Source: Minisyncoccota bacterium | GTDB taxonomy: Bacteria; Patescibacteriota; Minisyncoccia; UBA6257 | Reading direction: 5' to 3' | Assembly (NCBI GenBank): GCA_028694995.1 | Contig: JAQVJU010000001.1 | Coordinates: forward strand, 15,314 to 79,313 | DNA: 64,000 bases | Shown here: in pieces, positions 7-22,655 of the stretch | How positions within the stretch are numbered: the first letter of the stretch is position 1 | Layout of the letters: each line of letters opens with the position of its first letter | Notes under the pieces: model-generated | Database searches by the model: none | The model's input: the letters and a program-made list of their open reading frames with translations, nothing else | What the model was told of the DNA's origin: nothing | Made by a program: the position numbers and the translations under genes

Positions 7-83
7 GGGCAGTTAGCTCAGCTGGTTAGAGCGCATGACTTACATTCATGAGGTCATAGGTTCGAATCCTATACTGCCCACCA
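7..83 (+). tRNA. tRNA-Val (anticodon UAC), CCA encoded
   Basis: Cloverleaf read directly: acceptor GGGCAGT/ACTGCCC, anticodon stem CATGA/TCATG with loop CTTACAT, T-loop TTCGAAT, 3' ACCA. Confidence 0.9.
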
Positions 84-155
84 GTATTAAACTATGGCAA
101 AAATTAACAAAACGCCAAATGTTTCAATTGAAGATTTATAAAATAACATGAATTT

Positions 156-572
156 ATGTTAAATAGCGTGCCATTAGTAATTTTAATTATTTCTTTAAGC
201 ATAGCCACACTTGTAATAACTCCACTAATTGCTTCTTTAATTTTGCAATTACTTTCAAGGCTTTTAAAATTTCCAAAAACTGATTTTAAAACAGCACTTT
301 ATTGTAATTTAATTATTCTTGGGATTTTTGTAGCTTGTATTTCCACTATGGATATCTTATTTTTGGATCAAATTGAAAAATTATCATCTCTATTTCTTTT
401 AGTATCATCCCTAATTGCTCTTATCACTGGTAGTTTTGTTATCCATAAATTTTATAATTCATCGGTATTAAAATCATTTTTTGCTCTCCTCTTAACAGGT
501 GTAATTTTGTTTATTGCTTTTACTCTTGTTATAATTATGACAAGTGTGACTATAGCTCTTATAAAACATTAA
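156..572 (+). CDS. hypothetical polytopic membrane protein (138 aa)
   Basis: Intact ORF; translation is almost entirely hydrophobic helices; no recognisable family. Confidence 0.4.
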   Translation: MLNSVPLVILIISLSIATLVITPLIASLILQLLSRLLKFPKTDFKTALYCNLIILGIFVACISTMDILFLDQIEKLSSLFLLVSSLIALITGSFVIHKFYNSSVLKSFFALLLTGVILFIAFTLVIIMTSVTIALIKH

Positions 573-606
573 AAAGTCGAAAAAATAATTATTAAATTTT
601 AAAATT

Positions 607-1077
607 ATGGAAAACGAACAAGTCAAACAAAAATTCCCAATCGGTATGATATTAATTTTAATTCTTATTGGTTGGGGTGCGATAAATGTGTTACTAGGTG
701 TACGAAAGAACCCAATGTCTCAATTTGGGCCAGTATTACTTACTGGAGCAAGTGCAATAGTTGTTAATTTAATTATTGCAGCAATATTGGGAATAATATT
801 TTATGGAATAATAAAAAGGTTCAAGTGGGCGAGAAAGCTGGCGATTGGTTGGTATATTTTTTCAATGATATTATCGCTAATTAATTTACTATTCTTTTTG
901 GCTAACAAAACTATGTATAATAGTTATTATCAAAAAGTTTTATCGCCTGAAGCATATTCCCTGATGACTCCTGCCATAATAACTGGAACTCTTATATCAA
1001 TAATAGTTTTCGGTTGGATTATTGGACTTATAATAATAATCTATCTTACAAAGAAAAAAGATTTCTTTGTTAACTAA
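607..1077 (+). CDS. hypothetical membrane protein (156 aa)
   Basis: Intact ORF with ~4 hydrophobic helices; no recognisable motif. Confidence 0.4.
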   Translation: MENEQVKQKFPIGMILILILIGWGAINVLLGVRKNPMSQFGPVLLTGASAIVVNLIIAAILGIIFYGIIKRFKWARKLAIGWYIFSMILSLINLLFFLANKTMYNSYYQKVLSPEAYSLMTPAIITGTLISIIVFGWIIGLIIIIYLTKKKDFFVN

Positions 1078-1305
1078 ATTTTTTCCGAAAATAATTTATT
1101 ACAAAAGAATAAAATCCTATAGATTTCATGGTGATTGGTTTTAGGCTACGTACCATCAGTTCTGCTCAAAAAAATTCTGATTTTACCAAACAAACACACT
1201 AATAATTGATTTTATTTCAATAATAAGATAGAATAGACAGCACAAACCTTTATAATAAAATAAAAGATTAAATAAAAGTTATCTAAACTTTTTATTTAAC
1301 ATTAA

Positions 1306-1613
1306 GCCGAGGTAGCTCAGTGGTAGAGCGTTTGCCTAAATCTTTGGGCCAATTCATAGTAATATGAATTGCAAACTGGGTGAAATCGGAAAAACCCAAG
1401 TATAATTTTGGGCAATTCCGAGCCAAGCCTATTTAAATTAAATTTAAACAGGAAGGTGTAGAGACTATCTTTTTTAAGAGTAGGGGCAAATAAATATTTG
1501 CTTCAAAGCGCCCAGCCCCTATAAATAGGGTGATGATATAGTCCAAACTCTAAAGTAATTTAGAGAATGTTCGGAAGAGCAAAGCGTCCGGTGTTCGATT
1601 CACCGCCTCGGCA
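1306..1613 (+). tRNA. tRNA-Phe (anticodon GAA) interrupted by a group I intron; exon 1 1306-1337, exon 2 1574-1613, no CCA encoded
   Basis: 5' half GCCGAGG-TA-GCTCAGTGGTAGAGC-G-TTTGC-CT and 3' half GAAGA-GCAAA-GCGTC-CGGTG-TTCGATT-CACCG-CCTCGGC-A form a complete cloverleaf only when joined; D-arm and variable loop resemble canonical bacterial tRNA-Phe. Confidence 0.7.
1338..1573 (+). ncRNA. group I self-splicing intron (236 nt) inserted between U33 and G34 of tRNA-Phe
   Basis: P1: exon GCCU pairs with intron GGGC, with the U.G wobble at the splice site. P10: intron UCUUU just 5' of the guide pairs with 3' exon GAAGA. P2 hairpin CAATTCATA/TATGAATTG. P7 strands GACUAU / AUAGUC lie within the conserved S-like element GAUAUAGUCC. 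Terminal G at 1573. Confidence 0.7.
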
Positions 1614-1653
1614 CTTTAAAAAACCTTAATAGTGTTTTTTAAGTTTTAATCAT

Positions 1654-2454
1654 ATGACTTTACTGAAAAAAAATAACTCAATTTCATTACCTCTTACTGG
1701 TTCTCTTTTAGAAGGGGTAATTTTAGGAAAAAAAGAAAAATCTTTAATAATAGATCTCTCTCCTTATGGCACTGGCATTATTCAAGGACCAGAATTCCTT
1801 GAATCCAGAGATTATATCAAAAGCCTTTCTTCTGGAGATAAGGTTTTTGTTAAAATCCTTGATTGGAATAATGAAGAAGGTTTTATTGAATTGTCTTTAG
1901 AAAACCTTGAACGAAAGAAATCCTGGGAAACTATAAAAGATTTAAAGAATAAAAATGAAAGTTTTCCTTTTGTAATTCTTGAAGCTAATACTGGAGGCTT
2001 GATGGGAAAAACAGAAAACATTAAAGGGTTTTTACCTGCCTCTCAATTATCAGCTGAACATTATCCTAAGGCTGAAGAAGGAAAAAAATCCGAAATCTTA
2101 GAAAAACTAAAAGCCCTTATTGGTAAAGAAATCCAAGTAAAGGTTTTAGATTTTGACCAGGCAACAAATAAATTAATTCTTTCAGAAAAGCTAGTTGAAA
2201 AAGACAGATTGAAAGATATTATCAAAAACTATCAAGTAGAAGATAAGGTTAAAGTTAAAATTACAAAGATTGTTGATTTTGGTGCTTTTGTAAAATTAGA
2301 AGATTCAGGAATTGACGGTTTGATTCATCTCTCAGAGATTTCAGATCCAACCCCAGAAGACATTAATAAAGTTTTAAAAGAAGGAGAAGTTAAAGAAGCA
2401 AGAATAATCTCTATTGAAAACAATAAAATCTCTTTGTCTTTAAAAAATCTCTAA
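1654..2454 (+). CDS. S1 RNA-binding domain protein (short ribosomal protein S1-like, 266 aa)
   Basis: Repeated S1-like OB-fold segments (e.g. GEVKEARIISIENNKISLSLK); follows the tRNA-Phe gene. Confidence 0.5.
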   Translation: MTLLKKNNSISLPLTGSLLEGVILGKKEKSLIIDLSPYGTGIIQGPEFLESRDYIKSLSSGDKVFVKILDWNNEEGFIELSLENLERKKSWETIKDLKNKNESFPFVILEANTGGLMGKTENIKGFLPASQLSAEHYPKAEEGKKSEILEKLKALIGKEIQVKVLDFDQATNKLILSEKLVEKDRLKDIIKNYQVEDKVKVKITKIVDFGAFVKLEDSGIDGLIHLSEISDPTPEDINKVLKEGEVKEARIISIENNKISLSLKNL

Positions 2455-22579: not shown

Positions 22580-22655
22580 TGGTGGGCGTAGATGGAATTG
22601 AACCATCGGCCTCCACTTTATAAGAGTGGCGCTCTAACCACTGAGCTATACGCCC
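22580..22655 (-). tRNA. tRNA-Ile (anticodon UAU), CCA encoded; 1 nt from tRNA-Val
   Basis: Reverse complement GGGCGTA-TA-GCTCAGTGGTTAGAGC-G-CCACT-CTTATAA-AGTGG-AGGCC-GATGG-TTCAATT-CCATC-TACGCCC-ACCA. Confidence 0.8.

What the first reader, a model, noticed from the sequence alone, without database searches (positions are those of the whole stretch)
1306..1613. tRNA-Phe(GAA) split by a 236-nt group I intron inserted between U33 and G34
The two tRNA halves lie 236 nt apart and form a canonical Phe-like cloverleaf only when joined. The intervening sequence shows group I hallmarks that can be read directly from the sequence.
- P1: the exon end GCCU pairs with GGGC at 1346-1349, with the obligatory U.G wobble at the 5' splice site.
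- P10: the adjacent intron bases UCUUU pair with the first five bases of exon 2, GAAGA.
- P2: there is a hairpin CAATTCATA/TATGAATTG.
- P7: the strands GACUAU and AUAGUC lie within the conserved S-like element GAUAUAGUCC.
- The intron ends in a terminal guanosine.
From memory, bacterial tRNA group I introns are classically reported in tRNA-Leu(UAA), tRNA-fMet, tRNA-Ile(CAU) and tRNA-Arg(CCU). A Phe(GAA) host with insertion at 33/34 would be an unusual location. The intron is ORF-less, so it carries no homing endonuclease.
Basis: partly seen in the sequence, partly recalled or inferred. Interest (0 to 1): 0.62.

Follow-up and report, generated by a model that had tools for sequence, protein, structure and literature searches.

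The report
Group I intron splitting tRNA-Phe gene

Summary
Rfam Intron_gpI matches window 1328-1565 at 99.6 bits (E 1.4e-24). ARAGORN in intron mode calls tRNA-Phe(GAA) with a 236-nt intron after position 33. Exon 1 is 1306-1337, the intron 1338-1573 and exon 2 1574-1613.

The junction U1337|G1574 is supported by comparison. Two metagenome contigs carry an uninterrupted tRNA-Phe that is 72/72 identical to the predicted spliced product, in the same gene neighbourhood.

An alignment of 59 homologous tRNA-Phe introns shows strong covariation for P1, P2, P3, P4, P6, P8, P9 and P10, and an invariant P7. Two extra hairpins (P7.1/P7.2) between P7 and P3' give a subgroup IA-like architecture rather than the classical IC3.

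The window comes from a Paceibacterota (Patescibacteria/CPR) genome.

The novelty claim fails. Position 33/34 is the classical tRNA-fMet intron site. Nakagawa et al. 2026 (PMC13011429) already list Phe(GAA) 33/34 in a Doudnabacteria genome.

Verdict: a real, probably self-splicing intron and a new member of a known kind. Interest is low. Splicing itself was not tested.

The parts
1306..1337 (+). tRNA-Phe(GAA) exon 1: acceptor 5' strand, D arm, anticodon stem 5' strand, C32 and U33. U1337 is the -1 uridine at the 5' splice site.
   Evidence: ARAGORN intron mode. The sequence is identical to the 5' half of the uninterrupted tRNA-Phe in L205 and L177.
1338..1573 (+). Group I intron, 236 nt, without an ORF, with an IA-like architecture.
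   Evidence: Rfam RF00028, 99.6 bits, E 1.4e-24. Fold z = -5.87. Covariation in 59 homologues.
1334..1349 (+). P1 stem-loop. Exon bases GCCU 1334-1337 pair with intron bases GGGC 1346-1349, with the U1337.G1346 wobble at the 5' splice site. Bases 1341-1349 form the internal guide sequence.
   Evidence: 100% of cells are paired in 59 sequences. Three of the four pairs show changes on both sides that follow the anticodon-stem sequence.
1350..1371 (+). P2 hairpin, 9 bp (1350-1358 with 1363-1371), with a GUAA (GNRA) loop.
   Evidence: Recovered by the MFE fold. Eight of nine pairs show compensatory changes.
1376..1382 (+). P3 5' strand CUGGGUG. It pairs with 1509-1515.
   Evidence: 99.5% paired, three covarying pairs. 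Recovered by the MFE fold.
1386..1421 (+). P4 (1386-1391 with 1416-1421) enclosing P5 (1395-1399 with 1408-1412).
   Evidence: P4 is 99.7% paired. The window carries an A-U pair (A1390-U1417) where 53 of the 59 aligned sequences have G-C.
1422..1457 (+). P6 (1422-1424 with 1455-1457, and 1428-1430 with 1450-1452) plus an AU-rich P6a extension.
   Evidence: 100% paired. All three inner pairs covary.
1463..1467 (+). P7 5' strand GACUA. It pairs with 1539-1543. P7 holds the guanosine-binding site in group I introns (established knowledge).
   Evidence: Invariant and paired in 59 of 59 sequences. This says nothing about covariation, but it is the conserved catalytic core.
1468..1504 (+). Two extra hairpins between P7 and P3': P7.1 (1468-1471 with 1476-1479) and P7.2 (1483-1491 with 1496-1504).
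   Evidence: Recovered by the MFE fold. Compensatory changes occur among the 16 introns that share this sub-type.
1509..1515 (+). P3 3' strand CGCCCAG.
1517..1530 (+). P8 hairpin, 5 bp.
   Evidence: Rfam alignment, MFE fold, covariation.
1531..1543 (+). J8/7 (UGAUGAU) followed by the P7 3' strand (A)UAGUC. The string GAUAUAGUCC is invariant across the family.
   Evidence: Invariant columns of alignment A1.
1548..1565 (+). P9 hairpin, 7 bp, with a GUAA loop.
   Evidence: Recovered by the MFE fold. It is present in about half of the family (30 of 59 have letters in these columns), and six of the seven pairs covary.
1573..1573 (+). Omega-G, the last intron base before the 3' splice site.
   Evidence: Read directly from the sequence. 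All 59 family members end in G immediately before GAA.
1574..1613 (+). tRNA-Phe exon 2: G34 A35 A36 G37 A38, anticodon stem 3' strand, variable loop, T arm, acceptor 3' strand and A73. Bases 1574-1578 pair with 1341-1345 to form P10. CCA is not encoded; the next bases are CUUUAA.
   Evidence: P10 is 97.6% paired. The pair opposite tRNA position 37 is C-G in 37 sequences and U-A in 21.

Best explanation
The locus is a tRNA-Phe(GAA) gene of a Paceibacterota (Patescibacteria/CPR) bacterium. It is interrupted between U33 and G34 by a 236-nt, ORF-less group I intron with an IA-like architecture.

Inferred mechanism, from the standard group I pathway:
1. The roughly 308-nt precursor is transcribed.
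2. The intron folds into P1-P9 with the P3/P7 pseudoknot.
3. A free guanosine nucleotide bound in P7 attacks the phosphodiester after U1337, which is held in P1 by the U1337.G1346 wobble.
4. The internal guide sequence (1341-1349) keeps exon 1 in place and aligns exon 2 through P10 (1341-1345 with 1574-1578).
5. Omega-G1573 enters the G site.
6. The 3'-OH of U1337 attacks the bond after G1573. This joins ...GCCU to GAAGAGC... and yields a 72-nt tRNA-Phe with anticodon loop CUGAAGA.
7. End processing and CCA addition follow, because CCA is not encoded.

What is shown here: the intron's identity, its boundaries, its conserved and covarying structure, and the existence of identical uninterrupted alleles. 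What is inferred: splicing itself, self-splicing without protein help, and whether this is the only tRNA-Phe gene in the genome.
For: - Rfam Intron_gpI, 99.6 bits, E 1.4e-24, full-length model.
- ARAGORN calls tRNA-Phe(gaa) i(33,236).
- In the junction grid, reading the flanking bases, only the 1337|1574 join gives U at -1, G at omega and a canonical 7-nt anticodon loop with a purine at position 37.
- Empty-site proof of the junction: metagenome contigs L205 and L177 carry an uninterrupted tRNA-Phe 72/72 identical to exon 1 + exon 2, and L220 is 67/72. All three lie directly upstream of the orthologous S1-domain gene and downstream of tRNA-Ala(GGC)-tRNA-Val(UAC). The blastn alignment of the window to L205 begins exactly at 1574.
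- Family-wide structure in 59 tRNA-Phe introns: 83.5% of cells are paired against 70.0% in shuffles. The covariation score is 0.342 against 0.131 (0 of 500 shuffles reach it). Slid registers reach at most 48.7%.
- P1 and P10 co-vary with the exon sequences.
- The unguided MFE fold recovers the helices, z = -5.87.
- The nearest relatives keep the intron: L113 is 93.2% and L027 87.3% identical over the intron. About three quarters of their substitutions lie in unpaired or peripheral positions. Of the 12 listed inside helices, 7 keep the pair, including the compensatory changes 1354/1367 and 1487/1500, and 5 break it.
- Related Patescibacteria tRNA introns with the same core motif (Asn/Asp, 35/36) were shown to self-splice precisely in vitro (PMC13011429, abstract).
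Against: - There is no RNA-level evidence for this locus. Splicing, GTP dependence and protein independence were not tested.
- The rest of the genome is not available, so a second intact tRNA-Phe gene cannot be excluded. There is none in this 64-kb window.
- No promoter signal stands out above chance. Seven promoter-like sites were found against 5.3 expected. The best candidate is at 1234-1261.
- The alignment pattern used to collect the family required the conserved core. The invariance of P7 and J8/7 is therefore partly by construction.
Confidence: 0.92

Rival explanations
1. The intron is a decaying, splicing-dead remnant, the locus is a tRNA pseudogene, and a functional uninterrupted tRNA-Phe is encoded elsewhere in the genome.
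For: Only 64 kb of the genome is visible, and there is no expression evidence. Uninterrupted alleles with an identical mature sequence exist in related organisms.
Against: - Every family-invariant core position is intact in the window.
- P1 and P10 match the exons perfectly.
- Relatives at 94% and 78% flank identity retain the intron at 93% and 87% identity. Most of their substitutions lie in unpaired positions, and a small majority of those in helices keep the pair.
- The exons are identical to a presumably functional uninterrupted allele.
- Patescibacteria genomes mostly show a single tRNA-Phe gene in the excerpt of the supplementary tRNA-count table of PMC13011429.
Confidence: 0.04
2. It is a genuine group I intron, but in vivo it depends on a protein cofactor or RNA chaperone rather than being autonomously self-splicing.
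For: - Many group I introns need protein help in vivo (established knowledge; for example CYT-18 and CBP2 in fungal mitochondria).
- The intron is AU-rich (36% GC in the Rfam hit), with weak P6a and P7.1 helices.
Against: - Related Patescibacteria tRNA introns self-splice in vitro (PMC13011429).
- The intron has two GNRA loops (L2, L9), which are typical stabilising tertiary-contact elements.
- Its predicted fold is strong (z = -5.87).
Confidence: 0.15
3. The splice sites are different from those proposed. One example is U1341|A1578, which would give anticodon AAA. Another is a shifted register giving a different isoacceptor, as happens with the Asn/Thr miscalls described for this phylum.
For: ARAGORN accepts several alternative joins as tRNA-like. 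The join 1341|1578 also has U at -1 and G at omega. [quoted passage not shown]
Against: - U1341 lies in the P1 loop, not in a U.G wobble.
- The alternative join would give the loop CUAAAUA, with an unmodified-type A34 and a pyrimidine at position 37.
- Uninterrupted alleles in L205 and L177 are 72/72 identical to the 1337|1574 join.
- P10 covariation with position 37 fits only this register.
Confidence: 0.01

Closest known systems
tRNA-Phe(GAA) 33/34 group I intron of Doudnabacteria genome GCA_016699995.1 (Nakagawa et al. 2026, mSystems, PMC13011429, Table 1 and supplementary table)
   Same: Same host tRNA, same anticodon, same insertion site (U33|G34) and same P1/P10 logic. It shares the core strings GGAAGGUGUAGAGACUA, CCGAGCCAAGCC and GAUGAUAUAGUCCAAA. 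It has no ORF and comes from the same phylum.
   Different: - It is 211 nt long, against 236 nt here, and only 63% identical in the alignment.
- Between P7 and P3' the published intron has the majority form: one stem capped by a conserved loop, UGAG-CCCAACAAUAAU in the published sequence (family consensus UGAGUCCCAACAAUAAU). The window has two separate hairpins, P7.1 and P7.2.
- The published intron lacks the P9 hairpin that the window has.
- The host class differs: Doudnabacteria there, Paceibacterota here.
[quoted passage not shown]
   Same: Same phylum and the same core motif. My pattern, derived from the Phe introns, also retrieved 19 ARAGORN tRNA-Asn and 14 'tRNA-Thr(UGU)' calls. The paper shows that its own such Thr calls were Asn miscalled by two bases. 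These introns are also mostly ORF-less and sit in the anticodon loop.
   Different: They are inserted two bases downstream (35/36), in different tRNAs. Some of them carry homing endonuclease genes.
Classical bacterial tRNA group I introns: tRNA-fMet 33/34, tRNA-Leu(UAA) 34/35, tRNA-Arg(CCU) and tRNA-Ile(CAU) 36/37, all subgroup IC3
   Same: Anticodon-loop insertion, U at -1 and G at omega, an internal guide that pairs with the anticodon stem-loop, small size and no ORF. The fMet intron uses the same 33/34 position.
   Different: They belong to subgroup IC3. By my recollection of Michel and Westhof 1990, IC3 introns lack helices between P7 and P3', whereas this intron has P7.1 and P7.2 there. 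The host phyla also differ (Cyanobacteriota, Pseudomonadota).
Phage subgroup IA introns (for example T4 td and Twort orf142; recalled from the literature, not tested here)
   Same: The P7.1/P7.2 hairpins between P7 and P3'. The same P7 / P3' / P8 / J8/7 core motif occurs in at least 120 IMG/VR viral contigs and in annotated phage genomes.
   Different: The phage copies are not in tRNA genes (118 of 120). BLAST similarity is limited to about 40-115 nt of the core. Several of the phage matches lie under or next to annotated HNH endonuclease genes.

Membership tests
Group I intron (Rfam RF00028) | Covariance-model match above the curated gathering score. | tested here: met
   99.6 bits against 50, E 1.4e-24, model positions 1-253 of 253.
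Group I intron (Rfam RF00028) | P1 formed by the 5' exon end and the internal guide sequence, with a U.G wobble at the 5' splice site. | tested here: met
   U1337.G1346 plus three G-C or C-G pairs. The helix is 100% paired, and it covaries with the exon in 59 homologues.
Group I intron (Rfam RF00028) | Terminal guanosine (omega-G) and a P10 pairing with the 3' exon. | tested here: met
   G1573. P10 is 5 bp and 97.6% paired in the family. The C-G to U-A switch tracks tRNA position 37 (37 and 21 sequences).
Group I intron (Rfam RF00028) | Conserved core P3-P8 with the P3/P7 pseudoknot and J8/7. | tested here: met
   P3 is 99.5% paired, P4 99.7% and P6 100%. P7 is 100% paired and invariant, and P8 covaries. 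The MFE fold agrees.
Group I intron (Rfam RF00028) | Guanosine-initiated two-step transesterification (self-splicing). | not testable with these tools
   This needs an in vitro splicing assay or RNA sequencing. Only related Asn and Asp introns of the phylum have been assayed (PMC13011429).
Bacterial anticodon-loop tRNA group I introns, class Phe 33/34 ('Phe.2Ug' in the nomenclature of Williams 2020) | Insertion between U33 and G34 of tRNA-Phe(GAA), so that exon ligation restores a canonical tRNA matching uninterrupted homologues. | tested here: met
   The join is 72/72 identical to the uninterrupted tRNA-Phe in syntenic contigs L205 and L177. The same site is used in 57 other genomes and in the published case.
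Subgroup IA | Additional hairpins P7.1 and P7.2 between the 5' strand of P7 and the 3' strand of P3 (Michel and Westhof 1990, recalled from memory). | tested here: met
   Hairpins at 1468-1479 and 1483-1504 appear in the MFE fold. Both show compensatory changes in 16 introns of this sub-type. Nakagawa et al. classify nearly all Patescibacteria tRNA introns as IA and none as IC.
Subgroup IA | Best score with subgroup-specific covariance models (GISSD-type classification). | not tested
   Subgroup models are not available in these tools.
Subgroup IC3 (classical bacterial tRNA introns) | A compact core with no helices inserted between P7 and P3' (recalled from the literature). | tested here: not met
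   A 40-nt insert (1469-1508) forms two covarying hairpins. The Rfam alignment treats it as an insertion.
Mobile group I intron with a homing endonuclease | An intron-encoded homing endonuclease ORF. | tested here: not met
   The intron is 236 nt long. The only ORF of 40 aa or more overlapping it is a 44-aa minus-strand ORF, 1292-1426.

The most novel reading that the evidence does not exclude
The tRNA-Phe 33/34 IA intron may be far more prevalent in Patescibacteria than the single case reported from 95 complete genomes, and it may still be turning over.

- Organisms with a 72/72 identical mature tRNA-Phe in the same gene neighbourhood occur both with and without the intron, although the intron has no endonuclease gene.
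- That pattern could reflect ongoing gain, by reverse splicing or by an endonuclease acting in trans, or precise loss.
- Alternatively, as Nakagawa et al. speculate, the intron could serve as an RNA-based (for example GTP-sensing) control on tRNA-Phe supply in these reduced genomes.
Probability: 0.15. Interest if true: 0.5.

Novelty: new member of a known kind. Interest (0 to 1): 0.2.

Why it matters
For genome annotation, the point is practical. Default tRNA finders miss this gene, so the genome would appear to lack tRNA-Phe. Nakagawa et al. [quoted passage not shown]

Biologically, this adds one more example, with an exact syntenic empty-site control, to a recently described phenomenon: ribozyme introns sitting in tRNA genes of highly reduced CPR genomes. 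It does not open a new question.

The family data collected here could be a useful starting set for someone studying the evolution of these introns. They comprise 59 aligned Phe introns, two structural sub-types and P10 covariation with G37/A37.

Tried and rejected
- **Alternative splice registers.** I built a grid of 81 joins scored with ARAGORN. Several give tRNA-like calls, but only 1337|1574 satisfies U at -1, G at omega and a canonical loop. The empty-site alleles settle the question.
- **Is the window the published genome?** No. Its intron is only 63% identical to the Doudnabacteria sequence. The nearest genome is Candidatus Paceibacterota STE_68 (L113, JAQVJR010000001.1), at 94% over 4.8 kb.
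- **Viral origin or vector.** The core motif occurs in at least 120 IMG/VR contigs. None matches the window, and 118 of 120 are not in tRNA genes.
- **BLAST of the intron against annotated phage genomes.** This found only core-motif similarity of 17-49% coverage, so it gives no specific relative.
- **Promoter and terminator scan of 1000-2600.** The counts do not differ from shuffles, so I make no claim about transcription signals.
- **Williams 2020 (tFind).** The table listing the 21 intron classes is an image, so I could not verify whether Phe.2Ug is among them.
- **Other interrupted tRNAs in the window.** I found none, and there is only one Intron_gpI hit.
- **Integration signature for the 1.1-kb indel upstream of the tRNA.** There are no convincing flanking direct repeats and no Pfam match above the cut-off for its two ORFs.

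Full report
**1. What is at the locus**

Reading window 1100-1900 shows the two tRNA halves as described. Exon 1 is GCCGAGGTAGCTCAGTGGTAGAGCGTTTGCCT (1306-1337). Exon 2 is GAAGAGCAAAGCGTCCGGTGTTCGATTCACCGCCTCGGCA (1574-1613). They are separated by 236 nt.

Default ARAGORN finds 20 tRNAs in the window, and none is Phe. With introns allowed it calls tRNA-Phe(gaa) i(33,236), both on the region and on the whole window. The joined 72-nt sequence gives a canonical cloverleaf with anticodon loop CU-GAA-GA and discriminator A73. CCA is not encoded.

Rfam's Intron_gpI model matches 1328-1565 over its full length at 99.6 bits (gathering score 50, E 1.4e-24). It is the only group I hit in the window.

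**2. Anatomy**

The Rfam alignment, an unguided MFE fold and the family alignment together give these helices:

| Element | Window coordinates | Note |
|---|---|---|
| P1 | 1334-1337 / 1346-1349 | U1337.G1346 at the 5' splice site |
| P2 | 1350-1358 / 1363-1371 | GUAA loop |
| P3 | 1376-1382 / 1509-1515 | |
| P4 | 1386-1391 / 1416-1421 | |
| P5 | 1395-1399 / 1408-1412 | |
| P6 | 1422-1424 / 1455-1457 and 1428-1430 / 1450-1452 | plus an AU-rich extension |
| P7 | 1463-1467 / 1539-1543 | |
| P7.1 | 1468-1471 / 1476-1479 | |
| P7.2 | 1483-1491 / 1496-1504 | |
| P8 | 1517-1521 / 1526-1530 | |
| J8/7 | 1531-1537 | |
| P9 | 1548-1554 / 1559-1565 | GUAA loop |
| omega-G | 1573 | |
| P10 | 1341-1345 / 1574-1578 | |

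The MFE fold is -70.4 kcal/mol, z = -5.87, and no shuffle of 200 folds as well.

In the family, U1468 belongs to P7.1.

The intron cannot hold an endonuclease gene. The only ORF of 40 aa or more that overlaps it is a 44-aa ORF on the minus strand.

**3. Splice junction**

In the grid of possible joins, reading the flanking bases, only 1337|1574 combines U at -1, G at omega and a normal 7-nt loop.

A formal alternative, 1341|1578, would give the loop CUAAAUA. Its uridine is not in a wobble pair.

The decisive evidence is comparative. I scanned metagenome contigs for the window's exon 1 fused to CCTGAAGAG and found at least 120 uninterrupted tRNA-Phe genes.

- Two of them, L205 and L177, are 72/72 identical to the predicted spliced product. 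A third, L220, is 67/72.
- All three sit immediately upstream of the orthologue of the window's S1-domain gene (69, 64 and 65% amino-acid identity).
- All three sit downstream of tRNA-Ala(GGC)-tRNA-Val(UAC). The window also has tRNA-Val(UAC) upstream, at 7-83.
- The blastn alignment of the window to L205 starts exactly at 1574.

These are syntenic empty sites.

**4. Family and covariation**

I built a core motif from the window and the published homologue: GGTGTAGAGACTA, then 40-70 nt, then GATATAGTCC.

ARAGORN places 57 of them in tRNA-Phe, 19 in tRNA-Asn and 14 in 'tRNA-Thr(UGU)'. The literature shows that such Thr calls can be Asn miscalled by two bases. A few fall in other tRNAs. By record title, most of the 120 loci are Patescibacteria MAGs.

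After normalising ambiguous G|G boundaries, all 57, the window and the published case read U33|intron...G|G34.

On the 59-sequence alignment A1, my structure gives:

| Measure | Observed | Control |
|---|---|---|
| Cells paired | 83.5% | 70.0% in shuffles |
| Covariation score | 0.342 | 0.131 (0 of 500 shuffles reach it) |
| Cells paired with slid partners | - | at most 48.7% |

Per helix:

- P1 is 100% paired, and three of its four pairs change on both sides, tracking the anticodon stem.
- P3 is 99.5% paired, P4 99.7% and P6 100%.
- P7 is 100% paired and invariant.
- P10 is 97.6% paired. The pair opposite tRNA position 37 is C-G in 37 sequences and U-A in 21.

This P10 pattern ties the intron's guide sequence to both exons.

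Two sub-types exist between P7 and P3':

- The majority form is a single stem with a conserved loop, UGAGUCCCAACAAUAAU.
- The window's form, found in 16 sequences, has two hairpins. Both show compensatory changes.

Helices in this position are the hallmark of subgroup IA (Michel and Westhof 1990, from memory). This agrees with the published assignment of nearly all Patescibacteria tRNA introns to IA and none to IC.

**5. Organism and close relatives**

The nearest genome is Candidatus Paceibacterota STE_68 (L113). It is 94% identical over 4.8 kb, and its intron is 93.2% identical. Next is Paceibacterota STB_31 (L027), whose flanks are 78% identical and whose intron is 87.3% identical.

About three quarters of the substitutions in these two introns fall in loops or other unpaired positions. 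Of the 12 listed inside helices, 7 keep the pair, including the compensatory changes 1354/1367 and 1487/1500, and 5 break it. This fits a maintained ribozyme better than a decaying one.

**6. Comparison with what is known**

Nakagawa et al. 2026 (PMC13011429) surveyed tRNA group I introns in Patescibacteria. Their Table 1 lists 'Phe (GAA) 33/34' in Doudnabacteria genome GCA_016699995.1. Their supplement gives its sequence, which aligns with the window intron at 63% identity and shares the core strings.

They also state that 33/34 is a commonly found site (tRNA-fMet), and that introns occur at nearly every anticodon-loop position. They showed precise in vitro self-splicing for related Asn and Asp introns.

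Williams 2020 had already expanded the classes from 4 to 21.

The 'unusual host and location' argument therefore does not stand. This is a new member of a known kind.

**7. Mechanism**

I commit to the standard group I pathway, described under the best explanation. Identity, boundaries and structure are shown. Catalysis is inferred.

The rivals are a dead intron or pseudogene, protein-dependent splicing, and a different junction. They are weighed in their own section. The first and third are unlikely on the evidence above. The second cannot be tested here.

**8. Limits**

- There are no RNA data.
- Only 64 kb of the genome is visible, so it is unknown whether this is the sole tRNA-Phe gene.
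- The family was collected with a motif taken from Phe introns.
- The invariance of the core is partly by construction.

Noticed in passing
window 82-1196: About 1.1 kb between tRNA-Val(UAC) (7-83) and the tRNA-Phe gene is absent from the 94%-identical relative L113, where the alignment resumes directly after tRNA-Val. The extra segment carries two small hydrophobic ORFs (156-572, 138 aa; 607-1077, 156 aa). Neither has a Pfam match above the cut-off, and there are no clear flanking direct repeats. It may be a small insertion or deletion next to a tRNA gene.
   Followed up: partly
window 22580-22655 (-): A tRNA-Ile with anticodon UAU. To my knowledge most bacteria read AUA with a lysidine-modified CAU tRNA, so a UAU isoacceptor is a minority solution. 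I did not investigate further.
   Followed up: no
window 1577 (tRNA position 37); alignment A1: This tRNA-Phe has G37 rather than the A37 I recall as typical of bacterial tRNA-Phe. In the intron-bearing family, 37 genes have G37 and 22 have A37, and the intron's P10 strand switches C/U accordingly. Both intron sub-types occur with both G37 and A37 exons.
   Followed up: partly
alignment A1, columns 244-286 (loci L001-L120): The tRNA-Phe introns fall into two structural sub-types between P7 and P3'. The majority type has one stem capped by a highly conserved 17-nt loop, UGAGUCCCAACAAUAAU. Its conservation suggests a tertiary contact, and I do not know its function. The window's type has two plain hairpins.
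   Followed up: partly
loci L243-L362 (IMG/VR viral contigs): The same P7...J8/7-P7' core motif occurs in at least 120 viral contigs, and 118 of 120 are not inside tRNA genes. I did not examine the host genes. L312 comes from the same metagenome (3300037067) as a contig carrying the window's S1 gene, but it does not match the window.
   Followed up: partly
loci L005, L009, L012, L037, L057, L064, L105, L118: Several contigs carrying this Patescibacteria-type intron are labelled Gammaproteobacteria, Nitrospirota or Methanosarcinaceae archaeon in their record titles. All of these except L005 have the intron inside tRNA-Phe. These may be mis-binned or mislabelled CPR contigs, as Williams 2020 suspected for a 'Pacearchaeota' hit. 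I did not check this.
   Followed up: no
window 1-64000: The window holds 21 tRNA genes in 64 kb, a high density. tRNA-Val at 7-83 is followed by an encoded CCA (CACCAG at 79-84), while tRNA-Phe is not (CUUUAA after A73).
   Followed up: no
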